From positions 119,270 through 183,269 of the forward strand of contig CAZFKS010000001.1 in NCBI GenBank assembly GCA_964519725.1: 64,000 nt of DNA, written 5' to 3'. The stretch is from an uncultured Gammaproteobacteria bacterium (GTDB taxonomy: Bacteria > Patescibacteriota > Patescibacteriia > Magasanikbacterales > UBA922). The position numbers were made by a program, and so were the translations under genes. How positions within the stretch are numbered: the first letter of the stretch is position 1; each line of letters begins with the position of its first letter. Of this stretch, positions 6,026 through 17,183 are shown in pieces. The notes beneath the pieces are model-generated. The model was not told the origin of the DNA. It worked only from the letters and a program-made list of their open reading frames with translations, and searched no databases.

Positions 6026-6319
6026 ATGATACTCAATATGACTGACCCAAATTTAGCCGAAGCCTTAACCCAAAACCCCCTTTTGATTGATGTGCGTACC
6101 ACTGAAGAATTTGCCGAGGGTTCTGTGCCGGGCGCGATTAATATTCCATCACATTTAATTCCCTTGCGTTTGGCCGAAATTCCCAAAGACCGGCCAGTGG
6201 TAGTATTTTGCCAAAGCGGCAGTCGCAGCGGCCTGACCAAACAATTTTTACTCCGAGAAGGCCACACCAATTGCGTGAATGGCGGGGCAATGGCCAATGT
6301 TTTAAACGAACTCCAATAA
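6026..6319 (+). CDS. single-domain rhodanese (sulfurtransferase)
   Basis: LIDVRTTEEFAEGSVPGAINIP...VVVFCQSGSRS active-site loop. Start taken at internal ATG 6026 (MILNMTDPN); the upstream part of the table ORF overlaps tspO antisense. Confidence 0.85.
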   Translation: MILNMTDPNLAEALTQNPLLIDVRTTEEFAEGSVPGAINIPSHLIPLRLAEIPKDRPVVVFCQSGSRSGLTKQFLLREGHTNCVNGGAMANVLNELQ

Positions 6320-6586
6320 AACTTTGATTGTTTCGCCCTCAAAAATATCTTCGGCTTTACGCACGCCGGCTTTAACAGGTAACAAATATGCCCCTTCTTT
6401 GCTTGGGAAAATTGAGGTTTCCCAGGTGGTTTTGCCAATCGTGGCTTTGACGCGCACCGATCCCCAACCTTTTTTGGGGCGCGGCATGGCTTTAATTTTG
6501 GTCGTGGTTTTCTCATCAATGGTTACAAAATACCAAGCTCCGCTTTCGGCGGGGTATTTCCACAGTTTAGTGTTTAAAGTAAACAT
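6302..6586 (-). CDS. DUF1905 domain protein
   Basis: GSVRVKATIGKTTWETSIFPSKEGAYLLPVKAGVRKAEDIFEGETIKVLLE matches the DUF1905 pattern. 2-nt gap to the upstream DUF2075 gene. Confidence 0.55.
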   Translation of the reverse strand: MFTLNTKLWKYPAESGAWYFVTIDEKTTTKIKAMPRPKKGWGSVRVKATIGKTTWETSIFPSKEGAYLLPVKAGVRKAEDIFEGETIKVLLEFV

Positions 6587-6588
6587 AC

Positions 6589-8430
6589 TTAACCCACATG
6601 GTCTTTAAAATATTTTTCCGCTTCTTTATCCATAAAGTATACATAACAGCCTTTCATTCCGCGGGTCATGAGGGTGCGATAGGTATTTTTAATAATGGCA
6701 TTGGCTTTTTTAGTAGCTGCATCAGGGTCGATCTTGTGCAAAGTTTTAAAACCTTTAAGTGAGGTGTCAGTTTTGGCGCGGCCCTCTGGTACGCCAATTA
6801 CTTGGCCATTTCTCACAATTAAATCAGGACCAACAATTACGCCAATGTAATCAATTTCCAGGCCTTGGGCTGAATGAATGCAACCAACATCCTCCACTGA
6901 GGTTGGTGAAATAATCCAGGTATTGCGTTCACTATTTAAATTCCAGCGCATAGTAAAATTATGTTCTCGAATTTTAATATCCAGCAAATCTGGATTTTTC
7001 TCACTAATCCAATCCCAACACCGACCCGCTACAATCCGCGCTTTATTTCGTTCTTTATTTTTCTCGCGAATCAACTCTTGTAATTCTTGTGGTGAGTCAA
7101 CCACGCGAAAATCAAAGTCACCCGTTAATTGTGTGCCAGTATTTTTAATTTGCAAAGTATTGTCGAGCCAATCCAAAAAATTATCTGAGCCACCACACCG
7201 AAATTGAGAATTTAATTCTAAATAATGAATCCGCGCGCCGGCATTGGCCGCGCAGTGTTCAATTTCCACTTGACTACCAAAGTCATTCCAGGTCACTTTT
7301 TGGTCTTCATCTAAGAAAAATATAGAGCATTTGGCAGCCTGAATAATTTCGCGTACCTGATTACCGCCTTTTTTGCCATACATGCCAGTGCGTTCGTTCA
7401 GGCGGTGGGCTTCGTCTACAATCAAGGCTTCAAAAGTATTTGGCGCGATATTTTGGTAAGCACCAGAACCAGAAAAGAGTGCGCAAAATTCTTTAAAAGT
7501 CATTTTGTCCTTGAGCATGTGCTCATATACGGCGCGCGGCGCCGCGTTTTTGGTTACATATTGCGCGGCTTTCTGGGTACGGATTAGATTGATAAGTAAA
7601 TTAATCGCGACCACTGACTTCCCTGTCCCAGGCCCACCTTTAACAATTACCACCTGTTTATCTTTTGGTTTATTTACTAATTCCAAAATCGTTTCAAAAA
7701 CCACTTTTTGGTCATCAATCATGGTAAATTCTTCTTCGTTGTAAAGCGCGGCGGGCATTTGTTCGGCCACGCTGTGTGAGGGCTTAATCGCGCTTTGTTC
7801 AATTTTTTCTAAAATATCAGCAGCGCCAAATTGTAAGCGCTCGGCAATAAATTTTCTAAAAATATTTTCTTCACCTTTAAAAAATAAAGGTGCTTGATCC
7901 ACATATTCTTTATAAAAAATATTATCAATCACGCCATCCCGTTCATAATTGTGCAAATACACGCACGGCGTGACCACAATATTTTCCTGATGAATAACTT
8001 CAGTAAATCCGCGCAGTAAATTAGCATATACCAAAGCCTGATATGACGGATGAGCCACTTCCCTCTCAGTCGCACCCACAAAAGCTTTAATAACTCCGTC
8101 TTTTATAGTCATTTCAGCCGAGGTCCATTGCTTAAGCTCAATAATAACCACTTGATCTTTTTTCTCTTTATTTAGACCATACAAAATCACATCAATGCGT
8201 TTTCCTGTTGGCCGAACTTGATACTCAATCCCAATTTCCATATCACCCGGAATTTCTGGGGTATTCAAAACCTTACCCAGTGCTCCGAGCGATTGCTTCC
8301 ACGACTCCACTTCCCGTGCTCCACCGCCTCGGCCGAAATTCGCTTTCACCTTAGCCAAAACAATCGCCTCAATACGATTATTTTGTAGGTTCTCTAGAAA
8401 TTTAGTTTTGGTAGTGAGGTGGGAGATCAT
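6589..8430 (-). CDS. DUF2075-family (Schlafen-like) ATPase with an N-terminal nuclease-like domain
   Basis: Walker A VKGGPGTGKSV, Walker B LIVDEAHRL. N-terminal IDVILYG...VVIIELKQW resembles a restriction-endonuclease-like core. Last large gene of the hsd operon. Confidence 0.65.
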   Translation of the reverse strand: MISHLTTKTKFLENLQNNRIEAIVLAKVKANFGRGGGAREVESWKQSLGALGKVLNTPEIPGDMEIGIEYQVRPTGKRIDVILYGLNKEKKDQVVIIELKQWTSAEMTIKDGVIKAFVGATEREVAHPSYQALVYANLLRGFTEVIHQENIVVTPCVYLHNYERDGVIDNIFYKEYVDQAPLFFKGEENIFRKFIAERLQFGAADILEKIEQSAIKPSHSVAEQMPAALYNEEEFTMIDDQKVVFETILELVNKPKDKQVVIVKGGPGTGKSVVAINLLINLIRTQKAAQYVTKNAAPRAVYEHMLKDKMTFKEFCALFSGSGAYQNIAPNTFEALIVDEAHRLNERTGMYGKKGGNQVREIIQAAKCSIFFLDEDQKVTWNDFGSQVEIEHCAANAGARIHYLELNSQFRCGGSDNFLDWLDNTLQIKNTGTQLTGDFDFRVVDSPQELQELIREKNKERNKARIVAGRCWDWISEKNPDLLDIKIREHNFTMRWNLNSERNTWIISPTSVEDVGCIHSAQGLEIDYIGVIVGPDLIVRNGQVIGVPEGRAKTDTSLKGFKTLHKIDPDAATKKANAIIKNTYRTLMTRGMKGCYVYFMDKEAEKYFKDHVG

Positions 8431-8438
8431 TTTAAAAT

Positions 8439-8990
8439 TTACCTTGAAATAGTATCAAAATTTTGCAATTCTTTTCTTATATCAGCATACTTAGGCATGG
8501 CTCTAGCAACCAATTCCCAAAATTTCTTAGAATGATTTAATTCTTTTAAATGACATAGCTCATGCACGACAATATAATCCACCAAATAATCTGGCAAAAA
8601 CAAAATTTTATAATTAAAATTAAGATTCTTTTGTCCGGAACAACTCCCCCATTTAGTACTCTGTTGCTTAATACTAATGCGGTTATAAGAAAAATTATAC
8701 AATTCATTATAATGTACAACTCTTTCCTTAATTAATTTCCTAGCACGTTTAGCACAGGCATGATAATTTGTTTGTGGAAAATCCCTAGAGATTTCCTTCT
8801 TTTCTTTTTTTTGGAAAAACAAAATTTTAGACTTGATCCATTCGGCTTTTTCAGTGATGTATTTTTCCACCCCAGACAAATCAAATCCTTTTGGTACAAC
8901 CACTGAAACTCGAGCATCACAATTCACAACGATTCTTAGTCGCCGTGCTCGTTCACTTTCTTTAACCGAGTAAGCAATGCCGTGAGACAT
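8439..8990 (-). CDS. DUF45/YgjP (COG1451, WLM/M48-like) zinc metallohydrolase
   Basis: HExxH motif VVHELCHLKELNH. This family is a well-known neighbour of type I hsdR genes. Confidence 0.75.
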   Translation of the reverse strand: MSHGIAYSVKESERARRLRIVVNCDARVSVVVPKGFDLSGVEKYITEKAEWIKSKILFFQKKEKKEISRDFPQTNYHACAKRARKLIKERVVHYNELYNFSYNRISIKQQSTKWGSCSGQKNLNFNYKILFLPDYLVDYIVVHELCHLKELNHSKKFWELVARAMPKYADIRKELQNFDTISR

Positions 8991-8991
8991 G

Positions 8992-11931
8992 TTAAAACTT
9001 TTTAATGATTACATCGACTAAGCGATTGAGTAATTGATTTCGTTCAATGTCTTTGGTTAGGTTACCAAAATCTTTCCAAATTAATTCCTGCAAGGTTTGC
9101 TTGGTATTTTTAACAAACACATCTCGTTTTGATGACTCTTGCCAACCAGCATCAAGATCAGCTTCAACTCGAATCCGAACTTCTTTTACAAATTTTTGAA
9201 TCTCCTCGCCCTTTGTATCTTTTACAAACTCCTGTGAGATAACATACAGAGCATATTCTTTTAGATCAAGGCCTAATTCCTTAGCCTCTTCAGCTTTGGT
9301 TTTAATATCACTCATCAATTCCTCATAGCGACGAATTCTTTCGGCCAAATCAATCTGGTTTTGTTCAAATTGACGACGAATTGAAGTGAGACGCTCACTA
9401 AATTTAACAAACACGGGATTTTCATCCAAATTGATTGAAATTTCTTGTTTAAGCATCTTCTCCAAATTGAGCGCTTTTTCTTCTTCATCCATTCCCTTAA
9501 GTCGTTCAAGTGTATACAAATCATTCACACGCAACTCACGGAAATTTTTAGTAATTCCCTCGTAATCAATGATATTACTTTTTTGAATCAGAGCGCGAAC
9601 TTTTTCGCCATACTCTTCAAGAAGATACTTATCATCTTCACTCCGAAATTCCTTCAAAAAGGCCAAATAAAAACCGGTCACCCATTCAAATGGTCTAATT
9701 GATGGTTTCAAAAATGGATCCGGAGACAGAAACTCAAACAAACTCTTTAATTTTAAGTATTTCTCCACAAAGTATTTTTGCTTGTCCTGATTGTCAATAA
9801 AAATTTTCAAACAACGGCGTAAATTATCCATTGATGGGTCCTCAATATTTACACCAGTAAATATTTTCATGACATCATTCAACACATCGGTAAACAGATC
9901 TTTGATTCTGGCAATATCAATCATGGCTGAATCAATTATCTCTTCGTCAAAATCGAGCGCATCGTACAAATTTCGGGTAATTCCGTAATAATCAATAATC
10001 TTCCCGGCTTCTTTGTTTTTATATACCCGGTTAGTACGGGCAATGGCTTGCAAAAGATTATGGTCACGTAAAGGTTTATCCAAATACATGACTTGTTCAA
10101 TTGGTGCATCAAAACCAGTGAGCAACATGTCGCAAACCAATAAGAATTTAAGCGGTGACTTTGGGTCTTTGAATTGCTCAATAATCTGTTCACGTTCCCG
10201 TTTACTGGTGTTATAGACTTTCAAATCATCGGCATCACTATTTGGATCTCCAGGTGAATACACCACTGCCGACCATTCAGCTGGAACTAATTTATCCAGC
10301 AGTGTTTTATAAGCAGCCACGGCTTCACGATCATAGGCCACAATCTGAGCCTTAAAGCCGTTTGGTTCCACATACAGCTTGTAATGTTCCACAATATCTC
10401 GCGCCACTGCTTCCATCCGCTTGGGTAATTTTACCAAAGCTGCTTTTTTACCATATTTCTTTACCAATTCAGTTTTTTGTTTATCCGATAAATCACCAGC
10501 AATCTCTTCAAACTGTTCATCCAACTTAGTTTCATCAATCGAAAATTTAGACAGCCGCGCTTCATAGGTCATGGGAATAGTCGCGCCATCTTCAATTGCC
10601 TGTTGAATTGAATAGTAGTCTAAATAACGTTGACCTTCCCCTTCATAATTGCGGAAGGTATTGGTGTGCGCTTTATCCACAGGCGTACCAGTAAAGCCAA
10701 AGAAAAAGGCTTTCTTGAACGCATTACGCATGTTAATCCCCGATACCCCCTCGTCGCCTCGGTGTGCCTCATCGGACAGAACAATCACATTTTCATCTAA
10801 ATTTTCTACTTTGTCACCCAATTCAGAAAACTTTTGAATAGTGGTAATAAAAATCCCTTTTTCTGGTGACTGAATTTTTTCTTCTAAATCCTTGCGAGAA
10901 GTCACGCGGATAATATTCTTTCCACCGGCATTGATGAAGGTTTCAAAAATTTGGTCATCCAAATCTACCCGGTCAACCAAAATAAATACCTTAGGATTGG
11001 CTAATTCTTTATTAAAGCGCAATTTCCAGGCCGTAAAGTACATGGTCAAGGTCTTTCCTGACCCTTGGGTATGCCAAATTAAACCTTGGTGTTTTTCTTT
11101 TTTAACTACCCGGTCAACGATCTTATTAGTGGCCCGCATTTGCTGGTAACGGGCAATTTTCTTTACCACTCGCTCTTTTTCTTTTTCAAACAGAATAAAG
11201 TTTTGAATAATATCCAAGAAGTTATTCTTTGAAAGTAAAGAAATAAGGGTAACATCTAAACTAGCATCGTCTACATAATGACCTTTCCCTATCATAGACT
11301 TGGCTAGGTCATCATCACGCCACTGTAAAAAGTACTGCTTTGGTGCACCAGTCGCTCCGTAGACAGTTTTAAGGCCATCAGTGGCAATATTAAAGCAGTT
11401 AGGGATAAATAATTTACGAGCCACTTTTTCGTAACGCTTAATCTGATCAATCCCATTCTCAAAACTAACACCTTCCGAAGCAGTCGGACTTTTAGCTTCA
11501 ATATCTACTAATGGAATACCATTTAAAAAAATCAAAATATCCGGCCGAATATTTTCCGTATCACCTTCAAAATAAAATTGGTTAGTAACCACAAACTGAT
11601 TATTTTCAGGATTATCAAAATCAACTAATTTGTAATCTTGAAAATCACCAGTACTTGGATTTCGCAAATTAATCCCTTCACGCAAAGCTTTTAAAAATTC
11701 CTCATTAGAGTCAATCTTTTTAACCTCGCGAATAACATTACTAACCTCACTCACAGTTACCCCTGGATTAAGCCCCGCAATCGCCCGCTCCAAAAACGGA
11801 ACAATAATATACTCAACCTCAAGGTCGCGTAACTTAGCAAATTCCTCTGGCTTAATATACTCAAAACCAAGCTTATCCTTAATAAACTTAATAATGTAAT
11901 TTTCAATTGTGACTTGTTCGTTGAATTTCAT
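8992..11931 (-). CDS. hsdR: type I restriction enzyme R subunit
   Basis: 979 aa. N-terminal nuclease core (RPDILIF...DIEAKSP), helicase motif I HTQGSGKTLTM, DEAH box SDEAHR, motif VI QAIARTNR. Confidence 0.9.
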   Translation of the reverse strand: MKFNEQVTIENYIIKFIKDKLGFEYIKPEEFAKLRDLEVEYIIVPFLERAIAGLNPGVTVSEVSNVIREVKKIDSNEEFLKALREGINLRNPSTGDFQDYKLVDFDNPENNQFVVTNQFYFEGDTENIRPDILIFLNGIPLVDIEAKSPTASEGVSFENGIDQIKRYEKVARKLFIPNCFNIATDGLKTVYGATGAPKQYFLQWRDDDLAKSMIGKGHYVDDASLDVTLISLLSKNNFLDIIQNFILFEKEKERVVKKIARYQQMRATNKIVDRVVKKEKHQGLIWHTQGSGKTLTMYFTAWKLRFNKELANPKVFILVDRVDLDDQIFETFINAGGKNIIRVTSRKDLEEKIQSPEKGIFITTIQKFSELGDKVENLDENVIVLSDEAHRGDEGVSGINMRNAFKKAFFFGFTGTPVDKAHTNTFRNYEGEGQRYLDYYSIQQAIEDGATIPMTYEARLSKFSIDETKLDEQFEEIAGDLSDKQKTELVKKYGKKAALVKLPKRMEAVARDIVEHYKLYVEPNGFKAQIVAYDREAVAAYKTLLDKLVPAEWSAVVYSPGDPNSDADDLKVYNTSKREREQIIEQFKDPKSPLKFLLVCDMLLTGFDAPIEQVMYLDKPLRDHNLLQAIARTNRVYKNKEAGKIIDYYGITRNLYDALDFDEEIIDSAMIDIARIKDLFTDVLNDVMKIFTGVNIEDPSMDNLRRCLKIFIDNQDKQKYFVEKYLKLKSLFEFLSPDPFLKPSIRPFEWVTGFYLAFLKEFRSEDDKYLLEEYGEKVRALIQKSNIIDYEGITKNFRELRVNDLYTLERLKGMDEEEKALNLEKMLKQEISINLDENPVFVKFSERLTSIRRQFEQNQIDLAERIRRYEELMSDIKTKAEEAKELGLDLKEYALYVISQEFVKDTKGEEIQKFVKEVRIRVEADLDAGWQESSKRDVFVKNTKQTLQELIWKDFGNLTKDIERNQLLNRLVDVIIKKF

Positions 11932-11938
11932 ATATTTA

Positions 11939-12991
11939 TTAAAATGAAATTTCGCTTAGATTAATTTCTTCAATGGGCTTAATTTTTTCCTCGAGATTCT
12001 TAATTTCTAATTCGACATCAGTCTCCTCCCCTTCTTTTTGAATCGTTGCTCTGATAATTGCCCAAGTTTCAGGGTCAAAAAGTTCAGGTTTTGGTAATAA
12101 ATGCTCTCTATAAAAAGAGTTTGTATCTTGATCGTTAATTACCCAACGTACTTGGCTGTTTTCTAACAATGCATTTGCAAGTCCTTTAATTTGGGAGTCA
12201 TTAAAACTACTATACTTTGAAAGCTTACTCACTAAATCATGCGTAGTTAAAAAATTTGGACTATTGATCAATCCTTGCACTAAACTATCTTTTTCTTGCT
12301 CAACTCTCAGCTGAATTTTAATATCATGCTCAGAAAAAAATCTAGTGAGACTTTTATAAAAAAATATTTCATTCTCTGGATGAACTTTTTTCCACTCTTC
12401 CACTAAATAATCCTTAGCAAGATTTTCATCAATGGGATGCGAGTAATCTCCGTCCTTACTCAAAAGGATAAATTCTCCTTCTCCTTCGACTTCAGCCAAC
12501 AGTGCTTCCCAATTAATCTCATCACCGTAACTCCTATCCTTTTTACCTGGTGGTCGCCCCAGCCGATGTCTTTTTATAGATTGAGGTAAATATGCATCTG
12601 ATTCAATAATTTTACTCTCAGAAATAAGATCTTGAATTACCTTATCTGCCTTTAAAGTATGTTTTTGGATATCATTCCACAACTTTTTACTCAATTGTGC
12701 TTTTAGCTTGTCTAGAATATTTTGAGCACGCTTTATGTCAGTATATTCGTCATAGTGTTTACAGAATGGAGGCATTGTTAAAGTTGGTTTTGATTTAGCA
12801 AATTCCCCATAAGCCACTTTAAGTCTTACTTCACGATTTCGTTTAACCTCATCACAGACTTGGGAGGTAAGGAAAAGCTTAATTTCTCCAGACTTAATAA
12901 AATCAACTAATTTTGCAAGTTGAGTCAAATCTTCATCGTGAAAATCGTAAAAGTTGAGAAAAATATTTGAATCTATAAATAGTAATTTCAT
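11939..12991 (-). CDS. hypothetical protein with N-terminal PIN-like predicted nuclease fold, embedded between hsdS and hsdR
   Basis: LLFIDSNIF (acidic residue on beta-1), QVCDEV helix, LLSKDGD are spaced as the conserved PIN acidic positions. C-terminal about 170 aa unassigned. 4-bp overlap with hsdS. Confidence 0.35.
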   Translation of the reverse strand: MKLLFIDSNIFLNFYDFHDEDLTQLAKLVDFIKSGEIKLFLTSQVCDEVKRNREVRLKVAYGEFAKSKPTLTMPPFCKHYDEYTDIKRAQNILDKLKAQLSKKLWNDIQKHTLKADKVIQDLISESKIIESDAYLPQSIKRHRLGRPPGKKDRSYGDEINWEALLAEVEGEGEFILLSKDGDYSHPIDENLAKDYLVEEWKKVHPENEIFFYKSLTRFFSEHDIKIQLRVEQEKDSLVQGLINSPNFLTTHDLVSKLSKYSSFNDSQIKGLANALLENSQVRWVINDQDTNSFYREHLLPKPELFDPETWAIIRATIQKEGEETDVELEIKNLEEKIKPIEEINLSEISF

Positions 12992-14226
12992 ACTTGTTTT
13001 TTTCCACTCAGCAAATCTTGCATCAAGCCATTTTTGAGTAAAGTAAGTTTTGTTTTTAATTTTTTATTTACCGAAATTTTTTCATCAACAGCGGAAATAA
13101 TTTCTGCAATTTTTTCCTGCTCTTTCTTTTGTGGCAGGACAATTAAAAGTGGATTAAGTTTTTCCAAATTAATATTTTTTTGAGCGGATTGGGTAGAAAT
13201 ACTGTTAAGATACTCTTTTTGAGTTCTTAAATAATATTCCAAAAAAATCGGATTAATTTTTTCTTTACAAGAAATGCCCACCAAGCTATCAGGAAAGCAC
13301 GAATCAAACTCTAATATTCCAGTATCGCCAATGTTCGCGGCAATTGTAATAACGATAGTGCCTTTTTTAAACAATTTACTCACAGATAGACCTTTTTCGT
13401 TAAGTGTTTGGGTGTACTTTTTTATTCTTCCGTCTGAGCTGATAACATCACCAGTCTGTATAAATGGAATTTCCCCTCCATAAAATTCTGGTGCATTTCT
13501 CGGTCTATGAGAAAACTTACCCCGCTCCACAAGTGCAACGTCAGAAAGTCTTACGATATTCCACTCTTCCGGAATTTGTCCGATTTCTGTTTCCTTAAAT
13601 TTAGTATGCCCAATCCCATTTGTAAAAAGCTGCATCATTAGCCCGTGCTTGAGTTTTTCCGCAGATTTAATCACTTCATGCGTTTTAGTAATATCTTCAT
13701 CCACCGTCCTCAAAATCCCAGCAATCTTTTGTTGTTCTTTGATTGGGGGTAGTAAAACTTCTATACTTTCAACTTGGCTGGAGCTTATATTTTTTTGAGC
13801 CGCACCAATAAAATACTTCTCAAGTTTTGATATAAAATCTTTGTACAAAAATACTTGAAATGTAAAATCAGGATCTAAATCCTTATCTTTAAAGACAACA
13901 CGTCCTACGCGTTGATTTAAAATTGCTGGAAGATATTTCTTGTCAATTCGCGCTACTTTACCAAGTTCGCCAGTCATGCCCATCAAGATATCATTTTCTC
14001 TTAAGTGTACAGATTCATTGTTAGCATACCCATCTTCAGATATATACACAAAATCATTAGCCACAAAGTCTCCTTTGCCAACATTACCAATACGCACAAG
14101 CGGAATACCATCATTTACATAATTTGACGCGTTAAACGCATTGCCTCCTTGAAGCTTTATATGCCTTCCAATCGGAAGTAATTCCCACCCCTTAGGGATA
14201 TTTTGCTGTATCATGTTGGTTTTCAT
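12988..14226 (-). CDS. hsdS: type I restriction-modification specificity subunit (two target-recognition domains)
   Basis: 412 aa. Repeated TRD plus conserved spacer helices (LLPPIKEQQKIAGIL... and VLPQKKEQEKIAEII...) typical of HsdS. Confidence 0.85.
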   Translation of the reverse strand: MKTNMIQQNIPKGWELLPIGRHIKLQGGNAFNASNYVNDGIPLVRIGNVGKGDFVANDFVYISEDGYANNESVHLRENDILMGMTGELGKVARIDKKYLPAILNQRVGRVVFKDKDLDPDFTFQVFLYKDFISKLEKYFIGAAQKNISSSQVESIEVLLPPIKEQQKIAGILRTVDEDITKTHEVIKSAEKLKHGLMMQLFTNGIGHTKFKETEIGQIPEEWNIVRLSDVALVERGKFSHRPRNAPEFYGGEIPFIQTGDVISSDGRIKKYTQTLNEKGLSVSKLFKKGTIVITIAANIGDTGILEFDSCFPDSLVGISCKEKINPIFLEYYLRTQKEYLNSISTQSAQKNINLEKLNPLLIVLPQKKEQEKIAEIISAVDEKISVNKKLKTKLTLLKNGLMQDLLSGKKQV

Positions 14227-15128
14227 ACTATGTTATTTGAAACCCATTTAATTGAACCAGCAATAGAAGCGTTCAAAACTTGTAGACAAATTTTTGCAGT
14301 ATGAATATCTGGTGAAAATTTTGAAATACTTTGTTCGTAAGGATGGATATAATTGCGAAAATCTCGCAGAGCGTGTCCAAATTTCTTTACATCCAATCCA
14401 ATCACGCCGAGTTCGTGAGCCACGTCAATAAGACCAGCAAGCTTCCAATCAGGTAACGGTAAAACTTTTCCAGTTTTGTCTTTCGGACTTGCATTAGCTG
14501 ATTGAAATTTTTGAGGATGTTTTACTGCGATACCAAATAAAATTCCTTCCAGCGTACTGCCAGCCATAATAACAGAAGATAAAGGCGACTTGTATTGTAG
14601 ACATTGGCGAGATTCTAGAATACGCTCTTTTAATATACTCTCTATTGCCGCATCAAGACCGAGCTTGGAAATGTCATTTTCATCAAAATCTTTTTTTAAA
14701 AACTCTTCTTCAGAATCAATTGATGTATTTTTTGTATCTATTATTGGGCCGACAGACTCCTTTAAATACTTTAGAATAGGGTCACGGCCTTGAAAAGCAA
14801 CACTCATGTTCTCCATAGACAAAATATCGTTCATCGCTTTTGCAGCCATCTCCAATTTAGCTCTATCTGCCTTGTACTCCCTTATATCAACAAGCCTCAA
14901 AATCACTTTTTCAAGGTCATTCAATGTTAATTGTTTGAGCAGTTCAAGTACCCACCATTTTCGAGTACTACCATCATGGGTCACATTTATATTTATATTT
15001 TGAAAAAAACGAGTTAAATAACCTGAAGATCTATATTCCGGGTACTTTTGCGCCACATCTCCACAAATAAAATCAGCAAGGGCATCAAGTGTCGCGGGAT
15101 CTAATTTATTTTTTAAAAATACCGCCAT
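14223..15128 (-). CDS. hypothetical protein, HEPN-like (Rx6H motif) Abi/DUF4145-type candidate embedded between hsdM and hsdS
   Basis: C-terminal HALRDFRNYIHPYEQ contains an R-x6-H motif in a helical context. The position equals that of known HEPN/Abi insertions in type I R-M operons. Otherwise no strong motif. Confidence 0.3.
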   Translation of the reverse strand: MAVFLKNKLDPATLDALADFICGDVAQKYPEYRSSGYLTRFFQNININVTHDGSTRKWWVLELLKQLTLNDLEKVILRLVDIREYKADRAKLEMAAKAMNDILSMENMSVAFQGRDPILKYLKESVGPIIDTKNTSIDSEEEFLKKDFDENDISKLGLDAAIESILKERILESRQCLQYKSPLSSVIMAGSTLEGILFGIAVKHPQKFQSANASPKDKTGKVLPLPDWKLAGLIDVAHELGVIGLDVKKFGHALRDFRNYIHPYEQSISKFSPDIHTAKICLQVLNASIAGSIKWVSNNIV

Positions 15129-15129
15129 A

Positions 15130-16821
15130 CTAATATTTCAATTCCTTGAGATATTCGTCCACCTTTTTATCAATAATATCCCGCTCTTTTTCAATTTCCT
15201 TTACCTGAGCCCACACGGTTTTTACATCAATGTTTTCTTCTTCATCAGCATTTTCCACATAGCGACGAACATTGAGGTTGTATTCGTTTTCTGCTAATTC
15301 TTTGGTGTCAATAACGCGGGCGTATTTTTCGATATCACGGTAATTTTCAAAGGCGGAGACAATTTTTTCAATATCAACCTTACGCAAACGGTTTTGATTT
15401 TTTCCTTCTTCGTAATCTTGTTCGGCGTCAACAATGAGGATTTTATTTTTGTGATCGACTGGCTTATTTTTGTTAAAAATTACAATTGCAGCCGGAATAC
15501 CTGTTCCGTAAAAAAGTTTAGCTGGGAGTGCGATGATGGCTTCAATTAAGTCATTTTTAATGAGTTGTTCACGAATACGGCCTTCGGCCCCGCCACGAAA
15601 AAGCACGCCATGAGGAAGTACAATGCCAGCGCGACCATTTTCATTCATTGATTTAACTAAATGCATGACAAAGGCATAGTCCGCATTTTTGGCTGGCGGC
15701 ATTTCATATCCAGCGGCTCGTTTATAACTATCTGATTTAAATTTTTCGTAAGCGTAGTCCTTAATCGAGTACGGTGGATTACTAATGCAGATGTCGAATG
15801 TTTTGAGTGTACCATCTGGGTTGAGGAACTTCGGGTCAGCCAGTGTGTCCCCGCGTTGAATGTCCGCACTATCCAGTCCATGCAAGAACATGTTGATTTT
15901 GGCAATGGCGTAGGTGCCAATATTAATTTCTTGTCCGTAGAGGTAAAGTGAACGGGCCTTTTTTTCACCAGCTTCATTCTTTAAATGGTGATATGCTTCC
16001 AACAAAAAACCACCTGAACCAGCGGCCATGTCGTAAATATGGTCTTTCTCATGTGGCTTTAAAATATTAATAATTACACGTTCAACTTCGCGCGGTGTGT
16101 AGAAACTACCACCTTTTTTACCACCATCAGCAGCAAATTGTTGGATGAGGTATTCATAAGCATCACCTAAAAGGTCGGTACTAATGTAGTTGTCGCCAAA
16201 ATTATGCTTGGAAAAATGATTGATTAGTTTTTGCAAAATTTCATTGGGAAATTTGTCTTTATTGGCAAAATCCAGATCGTCAAAAATACGGTCCAGTTTT
16301 GGACTATTGGCAGTAGTGAGGTCATCAAAAATAGTATTGAGTTTTTGGCCAATACCTTCGGCTTGCTGTTGAATGACTTCCCAACGACAATGACTCGGGA
16401 CTTGAAAACGATGGTTATAATCAGCCCGAGCCACTTCTTCATCATGATATTCTTCTAGGACTTTTTTATATTCTTCGTCCCACACATCACTAATGCGCTT
16501 GTAAAAAAGAAGACCGAAAATATATTTTTTGTAATCAGCACTATCAATGCGGTCGCGCAAAATATCCGCACTGCTCCACAAAAATTGCTTGAGTTGAGTG
16601 AGGTTCATTTTTCCCTCGTCGTTGGTCAGCGAGCTGCCCAAGTCTTTGACAATACTTTTGTCATTGGCGATTCGTTCAATATCCTCGGGCTTATATTTAC
16701 GGTCTTTGCGAGGACCAACCCGTAAAGGGGTTATGAGCCCTTTTTTCTCCCAGTTGCGGAGAGTGTCTTGATGAATGCCAAAAATGGTTGAGACTTCGCT
16801 AATACTGAGTAGATTGGCCAT
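15130..16821 (-). CDS. hsdM: type I restriction-modification N6-adenine DNA methyltransferase M subunit with N-terminal MerR-type HTH extension
   Basis: NPPY motif ISNPPYS, SAM motif DMAAGSGGFL, HsdM N-domain (LWSSADILR). First about 50 aa LSISEVSTIFGIHQDTLRNWEKKGLITP is an HTH_17/MerR-like helix-turn-helix. Confidence 0.9.
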   Translation of the reverse strand: MANLLSISEVSTIFGIHQDTLRNWEKKGLITPLRVGPRKDRKYKPEDIERIANDKSIVKDLGSSLTNDEGKMNLTQLKQFLWSSADILRDRIDSADYKKYIFGLLFYKRISDVWDEEYKKVLEEYHDEEVARADYNHRFQVPSHCRWEVIQQQAEGIGQKLNTIFDDLTTANSPKLDRIFDDLDFANKDKFPNEILQKLINHFSKHNFGDNYISTDLLGDAYEYLIQQFAADGGKKGGSFYTPREVERVIINILKPHEKDHIYDMAAGSGGFLLEAYHHLKNEAGEKKARSLYLYGQEINIGTYAIAKINMFLHGLDSADIQRGDTLADPKFLNPDGTLKTFDICISNPPYSIKDYAYEKFKSDSYKRAAGYEMPPAKNADYAFVMHLVKSMNENGRAGIVLPHGVLFRGGAEGRIREQLIKNDLIEAIIALPAKLFYGTGIPAAIVIFNKNKPVDHKNKILIVDAEQDYEEGKNQNRLRKVDIEKIVSAFENYRDIEKYARVIDTKELAENEYNLNVRRYVENADEEENIDVKTVWAQVKEIEKERDIIDKKVDEYLKELKY

Positions 16822-16936
16822 AATTTTGTAGGTTTATGGCCCTAGGATAACACGATATTATAAAAGAATCAAGTTTGTATAAATTTTCATAGGATTTCAT
16901 AGGTTATTGCTACCCCTATCCAAACCATATATAATA

Positions 16937-16966
16937 AAAAACCGTCTTTTAAGCGGTTTTTTGGGA
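16937..16966. terminator. bidirectional-looking hairpin terminator between the DUF1295 gene and the hsd operon promoter region
   Basis: aaaaaaccg-tcttttaag-cggtttttt. 5-bp GC-containing stem flanked by an A-run and a T-run. Confidence 0.4.
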
Positions 16967-17183
16967 TAATTTGCGGTTGTACTCTTTTACCATTTTTCTT
17001 TGGTCCCTGTTGGCCCTACGGGCCGCTTCCTCAAATAATTTAATCTTCTCCAATTCCGAGGCAGTTCTAAAAAACTCCCCAGCCGAGGAATACTGTTGAG
17101 TAGATTTTTTATGATTAAAATTTTGTATATTAGTTGCTTTTATTCACTGTAATAACAACTATTAAGTTGCACTTTTGGGAAAT

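What the first reader, a model, noticed from the sequence alone, without database searches (positions are those of the whole stretch)
6302..16821. Eight-gene, translationally coupled type I R-M operon carrying five extra predicted nuclease/ATPase genes
On the minus strand the order is hsdM, a HEPN-like 301-aa gene, hsdS, a PIN-like 350-aa gene, hsdR, DUF45/YgjP metallohydrolase, DUF2075 Schlafen-like ATPase (613 aa) and DUF1905 (94 aa). All junctions are 4-bp overlaps or gaps of 8 nt or less. The whole 10.5-kb block is therefore one co-directional unit. Individual insertions of HEPN/Abi genes and COG1451 next to hsdR are known. This combination (two different predicted RNase-fold genes interleaved with M/S/R, plus a DUF2075 ATPase and DUF1905 tail) looks like a composite restriction-plus-abortive-infection defence module.
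Basis: partly seen in the sequence, partly recalled or inferred. Interest (0 to 1): 0.7.

Follow-up and report, generated by a model that had tools for sequence, protein, structure and literature searches.

The report
Restriction operon carrying swappable defence genes
This is an intact type I restriction-modification operon from a candidate-phyla-radiation bacterium with extra predicted RNase and nuclease defence genes sitting between and after its core genes. This arrangement is already known in principle, and here the extra genes prove to be interchangeable cargo rather than a fixed eight-gene machine.

Summary
Eight intact, co-directional minus-strand ORFs span 6302-16821, with junctions of -4 to +8 nt.

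The family calls are right:
- HsdM, HsdS and HsdR are clear Pfam/NCBIfam matches.
- The 350-aa gene is PIN_12.
- YgjP/DUF45, a DUF2075 helicase and DUF1905 are also confirmed.

Comparison with about 22 related operons shows that only MerR-HsdM, HsdS, HsdR and YgjP are conserved. The M-S gap, the S-R gap and the position after YgjP hold highly diverse cargo (TIR, AbiJ, Abi_alpha, OLD, NYN, DUF3800 and others).
- The HEPN gene recurs in 4 relatives and the PIN gene in 1.
- DUF2075 and DUF1905 recur in none.
- Both RNase families mostly occur away from type I R-M.
- DUF2075 is a Nhi-like nuclease-helicase that has a MazG-like partner in 5 of 5 other loci. That partner is absent here.
- DUF1905 has host-like composition and is probably a bystander.

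Best reading: a horizontally acquired type I R-M operon that acts as a small defence island of autonomous effectors. Embedded toxins and their repeated displacement in R-M operons were described in 2012-2013, so this is a new member of a known kind.

The most useful by-product is a conserved CCTATGAAA operator-like repeat upstream of the HTH-fused hsdM.

The parts
16822..16935 (-). Promoter and operator region of the operon. It contains a tandem CCTATGAAA CCTATGAAA pair at 16885-16903, just upstream of a TTGATT -35-like hexamer.
   Evidence: Sequence. These are the only two exact copies of the motif in the 64-kb window. The same sense-strand motif is present upstream of hsdM in 13 of 14 related loci and is about 24-fold enriched there. 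Its function as an operator for the HsdM HTH domain is inferred.
15130..16821 (-). hsdM. Type I methyltransferase subunit with an N-terminal MerR/HTH_17-type DNA-binding domain (residues 4-65).
   Evidence: Pfam N6_Mtase 1.3e-107, HsdM_N 2.6e-26, MerR_1 1.4e-11. TIGR00497 scores 280.6 bits against a cut-off of 242.75. NPPY and SAM-binding motifs are visible in the translation.
14223..15128 (-). Cargo gene in the M-S slot. A 301-aa two-domain protein: an N-terminal domain of unknown fold class (1-126), then a divergent DUF4145-like HEPN RNase domain (about 140-300) with invariant GSxLEG and R255-D-F-R-N-Y-I-H262.
12988..14226 (-). hsdS. Specificity subunit with two target-recognition domains. 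It overlaps both neighbouring genes by 4 bp.
   Evidence: Methylase_S 3.3e-45 in two stretches. PADLOC Specificity_I 4e-71. Only 30-47% identical to HsdS in related operons, while HsdM and HsdR are 62-88% identical.
11939..12991 (-). Cargo gene in the S-R slot. A 350-aa PIN_12 nuclease with a helical C-terminal domain.
   Evidence: PF16289 scores 77.4 bits against a cut-off of 32. The C-terminal part matches PADLOC candidate PDC-S34 at 1e-13. Acidic residues D7, E48, D116, D157, D180 and D182 are invariant in 19 homologues. An 87% identical copy sits in the same slot in L085.
8992..11931 (-). hsdR. Restriction and translocase subunit.
   Evidence: TIGR00348 1e-167. HSDR_N, SWI2_SNF2, T1R_D3-like and T1RH-like_C domains. 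D...EAK, GSGKT and DEAH motifs are visible in the translation.
8439..8990 (-). YgjP-like (DUF45) zinc metallopeptidase-fold gene. It is the conserved last gene of this operon family.
   Evidence: PF01863 scores 154 bits. The HELCH...H motif is invariant among relatives. A same-family hsdR ends less than 200 nt upstream in 23 of 47 metagenome loci that have enough upstream sequence.
6589..8430 (-). Nhi-like nuclease-helicase. An N-terminal RecB-type PD-(D/E)XK domain (E69, D80, E98-x-K100, Q131-xxx-Y135) is followed by a DUF2075/Schlafen-group-3 SF1 helicase. It is a tail gene not found in related operons.
   Evidence: PF09848 1e-96. PADLOC PDC-S41 6e-17, with partial Nhi and AbiO matches. N-terminal invariants come from 24 homologues. 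Absent from all related R-M loci. A MazG-like gene lies directly upstream in 5 of 5 other loci.
6302..6586 (-). DUF1905 gene of 94 aa. It is co-directional and starts 2 nt after DUF2075, but is probably a host gene and not part of the defence function.
   Evidence: PF08922 1.8e-24. No PADLOC hit. GC3 is 0.47, like the flanking host genes and unlike the island at 0.25-0.38. tblastn finds no homologue in the related R-M, HEPN-family or YgjP loci. The called genes beside the five DUF2075 homologues include no DUF1905.

Best explanation
This is a horizontally acquired, functional type I restriction-modification operon. Its family has a conserved backbone: MerR-HTH-HsdM, HsdS, HsdR and a YgjP-like metallopeptidase.

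The backbone has three positions that act as slots for unrelated accessory defence genes: between hsdM and hsdS, between hsdS and hsdR, and after ygjP. In this window the slots hold three genes:
- a sensor-domain plus HEPN RNase (301 aa)
- a PIN_12 nuclease (350 aa)
- a Nhi-like PD-(D/E)XK nuclease-helicase (DUF2075)

Proposed mode of action, all inferred:
- HsdMSR methylates host DNA and cuts unmethylated incoming DNA. This is the first line of defence.
- The accessory genes are autonomous single-gene effectors of the abortive-infection or nucleic-acid-degrading type. Each carries its own sensor or regulatory domain. They act independently when phage escapes restriction.
- They share only transcription from the hsdM promoter and translational coupling with the hsd genes, and they travel together when the island is transferred.
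- The promoter is probably autoregulated by the HTH domain of HsdM through CCTATGAAA repeats.
- Cargo is exchanged together with the variable hsdS segment, plausibly by recombination in the conserved hsdM and hsdR flanks.
- DUF1905 is most likely a resident host gene that lies at the end of the transcription unit.

Shown here: gene content, intactness, domain assignments, slot variability, and the independent occurrence of the cargo families elsewhere.
For: - Core genes are intact and score above curated cut-offs.
- The HEPN fold and an invariant Rx6H are present in the 301-aa protein.
- PIN acidic residues are invariant.
- RecB-type nuclease motifs and the DUF2075 helicase are present in the 613-aa protein. 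This is the same domain organisation as the validated Nhi and Nhi-like defence proteins (10.1101/776245; 10.1101/2022.05.11.491447).
- In related operons (HsdR 62-87% identical), the M-S gap holds 1-4 ORFs, the S-R gap 0-3 ORFs, and tightly linked ORFs often follow ygjP. Together these are 69 cargo ORFs in 56 blastp clusters.
- Pfam matches among the cargo include ThsB_TIR x5, AbiJ_NTD4 x3, DUF3800, NYN, OLD/AAA_15, AbiEii, Abi_alpha and DUF4268.
- A 398-aa plus 146-aa gene pair lies after ygjP in L130 but in the S-R gap in L152.
- The HEPN family has at least 585 genome loci across many phyla. In about 65 of the 80 loci examined there is no type I R-M beside it. Neighbours include TIR, integrases, Fic and Abi_C.
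- The PIN family also occurs alone (L087) and in another R-M island (L086).
- HsdS is only 30-47% identical between operons whose HsdM and HsdR are 62-88% identical.
- The island has low G+C.
- The CCTATGAAA motif is conserved in 13 of 14 hsdM upstream regions.
- The literature already describes repeated toxin displacement in R-M operons (PMC3506569; PMC3710099).
Against: - Nothing here is experimental. No activity, transcript or phenotype data exist.
- The 4-bp overlaps of the HEPN and PIN genes with hsdS would also fit stoichiometric co-assembly with the Hsd complex.
- The cargo genes have no antitoxin. How these RNases are kept silent is unexplained unless their own N- or C-terminal domains do it.
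- No recombination sites or flanking repeats that would explain slot loading were found.
- DUF2075 composition is intermediate (GC3 0.38). It cannot be said whether it arrived with the island or was there before.
- The 80 genome loci and 80 metagenome loci are the best-scoring subsets of larger hit sets, so the fractions are approximate.
Confidence: 0.6

Rival explanations
1. PrrC-type guard model. The HEPN and/or PIN RNases are latent toxins physically masked by the HsdMSR complex. They are released when a phage anti-restriction protein disables the restriction enzyme, so that R-M and RNases form one integrated two-layer system.
For: - The genes sit between hsd genes with 4-bp overlaps, which implies coupled translation.
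- No antitoxin gene is present.
- The HEPN gene tracks HsdM in identity in L005 (85% vs 86%) and L003 (66% vs 67%).
- The HEPN domain of this family recurs in the S-R gap of unrelated type I systems, L059 and L080.
- PrrC-EcoprrI is an established precedent (PMC3874165; PMC3506569).
Against: - Most members of the HEPN family (about 65 of 80 loci) and some PIN members have no type I R-M nearby. They must therefore be regulated without Hsd.
- The same slots accept structurally unrelated cargo such as TIR, OLD, AbiJ, NYN and DUF3800. That argues against a specific co-evolved interface.
- The 301-aa protein lacks the ABC ATPase domain through which PrrC is regulated.
Confidence: 0.2
2. All eight genes form one obligate composite system in which the DUF2075 ATPase and DUF1905 act together with the R-M and RNase components.
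For: - The genes are co-directional with gaps of 8 nt or less.
- No convincing terminator or promoter lies between ygjP and DUF2075 or between DUF2075 and DUF1905.
- DUF2075 proteins are defence-linked (PMC6765204).
Against: - The exact gene order is found nowhere else.
- tblastn finds DUF2075 and DUF1905 in none of the related R-M operons or the 80 HEPN-family loci.
- In 5 of 5 other loci DUF2075 is paired with a MazG-like gene and not with DUF1905.
- DUF1905 has host-like GC3 and no hit in the defence library.
Confidence: 0.08
3. Addiction model. The embedded nucleases are not anti-phage effectors. They are selfish stabilisers that kill cells which lose the island, or they regulate restriction alleviation. 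Their presence would then serve maintenance of the R-M element rather than defence.
For: - R-M systems and toxin genes are both known to behave as selfish, mobile elements (general knowledge; context in PMC2853133, listed but not read).
- Transposase genes are among the cargo.
- The island has foreign composition.
Against: - There is no cognate antitoxin or unstable partner next to the HEPN or PIN genes.
- The closest characterised analogues of these architectures are phage-triggered defence proteins: sensor plus DUF4145 HEPN in RAZR (PMC13017515), HEPN tRNase in DARNA, and Nhi.
- Neighbours of the HEPN family elsewhere are typical defence-island genes.
Confidence: 0.07

Closest known systems
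EcoprrI/PrrC locus of E. coli (type Ic R-M with an embedded anticodon nuclease)
   Same: A HEPN-domain RNase gene lies inside an hsdM-hsdS-hsdR operon. The system has a two-layer logic of DNA restriction plus RNA cleavage (PMC3874165; PMC3710099).
   Different: PrrC has an ABC ATPase N-domain and is regulated by binding the Hsd complex. The 301-aa protein has a different small helical N-domain and a DUF4145-like HEPN. Its family is mostly not linked to R-M. This locus also carries a second RNase-fold gene (PIN) and a nuclease-helicase.
Type I/III R-M operons with embedded HEPN, Abi or toxin genes, as catalogued by comparative genomics (Makarova et al. 2012; Anantharaman et al. 2013). From my own recollection, not checked here: the rlo genes of Campylobacter hsd loci.
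   Same: Unrelated toxin-like genes are inserted between hsd genes, with repeated displacement of one toxin by another. DUF4145-type HEPN domains are reported in operons with R-M.
   Different: This Patescibacteria-type operon family has not been described specifically, as far as my literature searches show. It has an HTH-fused HsdM, a terminal YgjP, three slots and its own cargo repertoire. The PIN_12 plus HEPN plus DUF2075 combination is unique among the loci examined.
RAZR (ring-activated zinc-finger RNase) and DARNA/PD-T7-3, single-gene HEPN abortive-infection proteins
   Same: The architecture is one sensor or regulatory domain plus one divergent HEPN RNase domain with an Arg...His catalytic pair. 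RAZR's HEPN is a DUF4145 domain, the family that the 301-aa protein matches below threshold.
   Different: RAZR has a Cys4 zinc-ribbon N-domain and DARNA has its HEPN at the N-terminus. The N-domain here is a six-helix bundle with a beta hairpin and no confident structural relative. No trigger or RNA target is known.
Nhi (S. epidermidis) and Nhi-like (Millman et al. 2022) nuclease-helicase defence proteins
   Same: An N-terminal PD-(D/E)XK nuclease plus a DUF2075 SF1 helicase in one polypeptide.
   Different: Only a partial match to the PADLOC Nhi and AbiO models, covering the helicase N-terminal part (residues 230-411, E about 1e-11). The family is normally paired with a MazG-like gene that is missing here.
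PADLOC phage-defence candidates PDC-S34 and PDC-S41
   Same: The C-terminal domain of the PIN protein matches PDC-S34 (1e-13). The N-terminal half of the DUF2075 protein matches PDC-S41 (6e-17).
   Different: These are unvalidated candidate families, and the matches are partial.

Membership tests
Type I restriction-modification system | HsdM: HsdM_N plus N6-adenine methyltransferase domain with SAM-binding and NPPY motifs | tested here: met
   Pfam N6_Mtase 1.3e-107 and HsdM_N 2.6e-26. TIGR00497 scores 280.6 against a cut-off of 242.75. The motifs are visible in the translation.
Type I restriction-modification system | HsdS with two target-recognition domains | tested here: met
   Methylase_S in two stretches, 3.3e-45. 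Full-length matches to PADLOC Specificity_I models.
Type I restriction-modification system | HsdR with an N-terminal PD-(D/E)XK nuclease and an SF2 translocase | tested here: met
   TIGR00348 scores 559.6 bits against a cut-off of 284.55. HSDR_N, SWI2_SNF2 and T1R_D3-like domains.
Type I restriction-modification system | Sequence-specific methylation and ATP-dependent restriction activity | not testable with these tools
   Needs a methylome or a restriction assay.
HEPN superfamily (301-aa protein) | Four-helix up-and-down HEPN fold | tested here: met
   [not shown]
HEPN superfamily (301-aa protein) | Conserved Rx4-6H catalytic motif | tested here: met
   R255-DFRNYI-H262 (Rx6H, with a polar residue after R) is invariant in 30 diverse homologues.
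Pfam DUF4145 (HEPN clan) | Score above the Pfam gathering threshold | tested here: not met
   15.2 bits against a cut-off of 23.1 for the window protein. 11 of 30 family members match only at E of 5 or less, the best at 3e-4. It is a distant relative, not a member by Pfam's criterion.
PrrC/RloC anticodon nucleases | N-terminal ABC (SbcC/Rad50-like) ATPase fused to a C-terminal HEPN | tested here: not met
   No ATPase domain was detected. The N-domain is a 126-aa helical bundle.
PrrC/RloC anticodon nucleases | Silencing by the linked Hsd complex | not testable with these tools
   Indirect evidence argues against obligate dependence, since about 65 of 80 family loci lack a nearby type I R-M.
PIN domain nucleases (PIN_12) | Pfam match above threshold and a conserved acidic active-site set | tested here: met
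   PF16289 scores 77.4 against a cut-off of 32. D7, E48, D116, D157, D180 and D182 are invariant.
Nhi / Nhi-like nuclease-helicase defence proteins | N-terminal PD-(D/E)XK nuclease plus DUF2075 SF1 helicase in one protein | tested here: met
   PF09848 1e-96 and a Walker A GPGTGKS motif. E69, D80, E98xK100 and Q131xxxY135 are invariant in 24 homologues. The nuclease assignment rests on motifs only. No structure was predicted for this protein.
Nhi / Nhi-like nuclease-helicase defence proteins | Sequence membership in the Nhi model, and anti-phage activity | tested here: inconclusive
   The PADLOC Nhi match (2.5e-11) covers residues 230-411 only. Activity was not tested.
YgjP-like / DUF45 metallopeptidase fold | Pfam match and the HExxH zinc-binding motif | tested here: met
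   PF01863 scores 154 bits. HELCH is invariant in relatives. The substrate is unknown.
DUF1905 as a defence-operon component | Recurrent linkage to R-M or DUF2075 genes | tested here: not met
   tblastn found no DUF1905 homologue in the 84 loci or the 84 sequences. The called genes beside five DUF2075 homologues include none. GC3 is host-like.

The most novel reading that the evidence does not exclude
The conserved backbone (HTH-HsdM, HsdR and the invariably terminal YgjP-like metallopeptidase) could be a generic plug-and-play licensing platform. On this reading, failure or inhibition of the restriction complex is sensed and, for example through YgjP-mediated proteolysis, activates whichever unrelated effector (HEPN, PIN, TIR, OLD, AbiJ and others) occupies a slot. 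That would generalise the PrrC principle from one co-evolved pair to a cargo-agnostic mechanism. It would also give the widespread hsdR-linked DUF45 proteins a function.
Probability: 0.1. Interest if true: 0.75.

Novelty: new member of a known kind. Interest (0 to 1): 0.35.

Why it matters
As it stands, this is a clear, well-bounded example of a known phenomenon in a little-studied lineage (Patescibacteria). It also gives several concrete leads.

1. A large protein family has no annotation: more than 3,700 proteins, and at least 585 loci among the GTDB species genomes. It combines an unknown N-domain with a divergent HEPN RNase and is a good candidate single-gene abortive-infection system.
2. 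A type I R-M operon family has three cargo slots. Its contents could be mined as a guilt-by-association catalogue of new defence genes.
3. A conserved operator-like repeat lies next to an HTH-fused HsdM. This suggests transcriptional autoregulation, which to my knowledge is not established for type I systems.
4. A MazG-like plus DUF2075 nuclease-helicase pair is conserved in 5 of 5 loci sampled. My literature search found no paper that mentions both names.

None of these changes current concepts.

Tried and rejected
- Sequence search of the HEPN-family profile against PDB chains found nothing at E of 10 or less.
- Promoter and terminator scans inside the operon gave no more promoter-like sites than shuffled sequence (35 vs 32.7). 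They found no convincing internal terminator. The promoter-like site at 8458-8429 overlaps the DUF2075 start codon, so I discounted it.
- A search for att-like direct or inverted repeats flanking the island returned only short AT-rich matches that look like chance. No tRNA or Rfam element lies near the locus.
- A search for a displaced MazG-like gene or remnant anywhere in the window found nothing (best E 1.1).
- Literature searches for DUF2075 plus MazG, and for COG1451, gave nothing useful. The statement that COG1451/DUF45 is linked to hsdR in defence islands rests on my own recollection of Makarova et al. 2011 and on the 23 of 47 count obtained here.
- I could not establish whether DUF2075 and DUF1905 were at this site before the R-M cassette arrived. 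No related genome with the same flanks but without the island was retrieved.

Full report
**1. Observation**

Gene-to-gene distances are +1, -4, -4, +7, +1, +8 and +2 nt.

Upstream of hsdM lies a 362-nt AT-rich intergenic region, after a DUF1295 gene. It contains hairpins followed by T-runs (one at 17091-17074). Downstream, a convergent rhodanese-like ORF ends at 6319 and overlaps the 3' end of the DUF1905 ORF. The block is therefore well bounded.

G+C drops from 43-49% in the flanks to 33-40% across ygjP through hsdM.

Shine-Dalgarno-like sequences are weak or absent before the internal genes. This fits translational coupling.

The promoter scan finds no more sites than shuffled sequence, and there is no convincing internal terminator. 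Read-through transcription of all eight genes is the default expectation, but it is not shown.

**2. What the genes are**

The clear cases come from Pfam, PADLOC and NCBIfam:
- HsdM carries an extra N-terminal MerR/HTH_17-type domain.
- HsdS has two target-recognition domains.
- HsdR scores 560 bits on TIGR00348.
- The 183-aa protein is YgjP-like (DUF45) with an intact HExxH.
- The 350-aa protein is PIN_12 (77 bits). Its C-terminal domain matches PADLOC candidate PDC-S34.
- The 613-aa protein has the DUF2075/Schlafen-group-3 helicase domain.
- The 94-aa protein is DUF1905.

An alignment of 19 PIN homologues shows invariant D7, E48, D116, D157, D180 and D182.

An alignment of 24 DUF2075 homologues shows invariant E69, D80, E98-x-K100 and Q131-xxx-Y135 in the N-terminal 230 residues. 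This is a RecB-type PD-(D/E)XK nuclease signature. The QxxxY motif is the one the abstract of PMC2475608 (listed) describes for RecB-family nucleases and HsdR. The protein therefore has the nuclease-plus-DUF2075 organisation of the validated defence proteins Nhi and Nhi-like.

The 301-aa protein hits nothing in the three libraries. It belongs to a family of more than 3,700 proteins, with at least 585 loci among the GTDB species genomes across many phyla.

Its alignment shows two conserved blocks:
- an N-terminal domain with invariant CGD, YRSS and HDGSTRKWW
- a C-terminal domain with GSxLEG and RDFRNYIHP

The catalytic pair is R255-x6-H262.

In L059 and L080 the same HEPN domain (56% identical) is fused to a different N-domain. 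The N-domains therefore behave as exchangeable sensor or regulatory modules. Anantharaman et al. described the same behaviour for the AbiJ-NTD domains and others.

**3. Comparative context**

Close relatives of the operon were obtained in three ways:
- exact-protein look-ups
- a genome scan with the HEPN family
- a metagenome scan with the YgjP alignment

About 22 loci have the same HsdR family (62-87% identity), with ygjP immediately downstream. Where the contig reaches far enough, they also have the MerR-HsdM.

In these loci:
- the M-S gap holds 1-4 ORFs
- the S-R gap holds 0-3 ORFs
- further ORFs often follow ygjP at very short distances

The 69 cargo ORFs fall into 56 blastp clusters. Pfam matches on 61 of them include ThsB_TIR (5), AbiJ_NTD4 (3), AAA_15 and AAA_21 (2 each), one OLD-type TOPRIM, DUF3800 (2), NYN (2), DUF4209, Bro-N, AAA_13, PIF1, DUF4268, Abi_alpha, AbiEii, Trypsin_2, CLP protease, WYL and a few transposases.

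A 398-aa plus 146-aa gene pair lies after ygjP in L130 and in the S-R gap in L152.

The window's HEPN gene is in the M-S gap in L003, L005, L097 and L099. The PIN gene is in the S-R gap in L085 (87% identity). In L085 the M-S gap holds an Abi_alpha gene instead, and an AbiJ_NTD4 gene follows the PIN gene.

No locus repeats the window's gene order. DUF2075 and DUF1905 are absent from all of them.

HsdS is only 30-47% identical between operons whose HsdM and HsdR are 62-88% identical. The whole stretch between hsdM and hsdR is therefore the exchangeable part.

**4. The cargo families elsewhere**

Of the 80 best genome loci for the HEPN family, only about 15 have type I R-M genes nearby. Immediate neighbours are otherwise extremely diverse: 99 singletons among 135 neighbouring ORFs. 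They include methyltransferases, integrases, TIR, Fic, RhuM, Abi_C and AAA_21. One example sits next to a TIR protein and an OLD-family nuclease in an actinomycete chromosome.

The PIN family occurs alone in a Rhodobacterales genome. It also occurs in a different R-M/defence cluster with GmrSD-HNH, RmuC and NYN.

The DUF2075 family is very large. All but 2 of the 8,000 scored candidates passed E of 0.001 or less, and the closest non-self relative is 55% identical. In five of five other loci it is directly preceded by a small MazG-like gene and is never followed by DUF1905. The window has no MazG-like sequence at all.

DUF1905 has GC3 of 0.47, like the host genes (0.39-0.55). The island genes have GC3 of 0.25-0.38.

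**5. Regulation**

Upstream of hsdM in 13 of 14 related loci there are sense-strand copies of CCTATGAAA. Typically one tandem pair lies just upstream of a TTGACA-like -35 element. Often a second pair lies between the -10 region and the start codon. The motif is about 24-fold enriched there.

In the window, the only two exact copies in 64 kb are the tandem pair at 16885-16903. I infer that this is the operator for the MerR/HTH_17-type domain fused to HsdM. That would put the whole operon under autoregulation. This is an inference from position and conservation only.

**6. Mechanism**

The best-supported reading is an R-M backbone that carries autonomous accessory effectors, in effect a defence island compressed into one operon.
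- The R-M part restricts unmethylated DNA.
- The HEPN protein is most like single-gene sensor-HEPN systems such as RAZR (N-terminal sensor plus DUF4145 HEPN) or DARNA. It would cleave RNA when its N-domain senses infection.
- The PIN protein is a second predicted nuclease.
- The DUF2075 protein is a Nhi-like nuclease-helicase that would attack replicating phage DNA.

The PrrC-type guard model remains possible, because of the intimate gene overlaps and the lack of antitoxins. It is disfavoured because both RNase families occur independently of R-M and because the slot contents are so diverse. An obligate eight-gene system is unlikely.

**7. Comparison with what is known, and novelty**

Embedded toxin, HEPN or Abi genes in type I and type III R-M operons are already described. 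So is repeated toxin displacement (PMC3506569). DUF4145-type HEPN in operons with R-M is listed in PMC3710099. PrrC is the experimentally studied case.

The locus is therefore a new member of a known kind. The specific combination is unique among the loci examined. However, given the combinatorial variability, uniqueness of a combination is expected and is not in itself informative.

The by-products are modestly interesting leads: the unannotated HEPN family, the slot architecture in Patescibacteria-type operons, the operator motif, and the MazG-like/DUF2075 pairing.

**8. Source**

An exact copy of the hsdM-HEPN-hsdS segment is on a Logan contig from run SRR11567520. The closest operon relative is in a Candidatus Adlerbacteria MAG. 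The window most likely comes from a Patescibacteria (CPR) genome. This is an inference.

Noticed in passing
window 16885-16903 (minus strand); hsdM upstream regions of L003, L005, L085, L099, L109, L114, L121, L131, L132, L133, L138, L159: A conserved sense-strand repeat, CCTATGAAA, lies next to the -35 and often again before the start codon of the HTH-fused hsdM. It is about 24-fold enriched and present in 13 of 14 related loci. It is probably an operator, which would imply transcriptional autoregulation of a type I R-M operon.
   Followed up: partly
L089 6651-8875, L091 6654-8875, L093 6668-8863, L174 4585-6800, L175 4735-7403: Homologues of the DUF2075 nuclease-helicase (51-55% identical) are directly preceded by a small MazG-like (PF12643) gene in 5 of 5 loci. 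The pair looks like a conserved two-gene module. No paper in the searched library mentions both names. The window copy lacks the partner.
   Followed up: partly
Proteins P0220, P0223, P0236, P0239 and others; L175 5001-7403: A subset of the same DUF2075 family (about 800 aa) carries a Peptidase_S24 (LexA-like) domain. This hints at a link to DNA-damage signalling.
   Followed up: no
[not shown]
   Followed up: partly
L059 2969-3820; L080 9641-10477: The same HEPN domain (56% identical) is fused to a different N-terminal domain. It lies in the S-R gap of unrelated type I R-M operons from a Verrucomicrobiales MAG and a Zixiibacteriota MAG. In L059 it sits between a 376-aa ORF that was not annotated individually and a RhuM-like ORF. 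In L080 it is followed by a 535-aa ORF that is probably DUF6119. These family labels are inferred from the Pfam summary.
   Followed up: partly
L130 2197-3830; L159 10238-11443; L152 3128-4758: A 398-aa plus 146-aa gene pair of unknown family lies after ygjP in L130. The 401-aa homologue alone lies after ygjP in L159. The pair lies between hsdS and hsdR in L152, so cargo moves between slots.
   Followed up: no
L002 8991-10906 (actinomycete chromosome OY970186): A 52% identical homologue of the 301-aa HEPN protein lies 20 nt downstream of a CAP12/Pycsar-type TIR protein. An OLD-family ATPase-TOPRIM gene is nearby. This is a possible TIR-HEPN pairing.
   Followed up: no
window 16949-17053 (minus strand): A 34-aa ORF (MEKIKLFEEAARRANRDQRKMVKEYNRKLSQKTA) is followed by a hairpin and T-run, between the DUF1295 gene and the hsdM promoter. 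Its open frame extends further upstream without a start codon, so it may be a gene remnant.
   Followed up: no
L094, L098, L106, L124 and others: About half of the closest YgjP-like homologues (42-59% identical) in metagenome contigs are not next to a detectable same-family HsdR (24 of 47 with enough upstream sequence). The DUF45-hsdR linkage is therefore frequent but not obligatory.
   Followed up: partly
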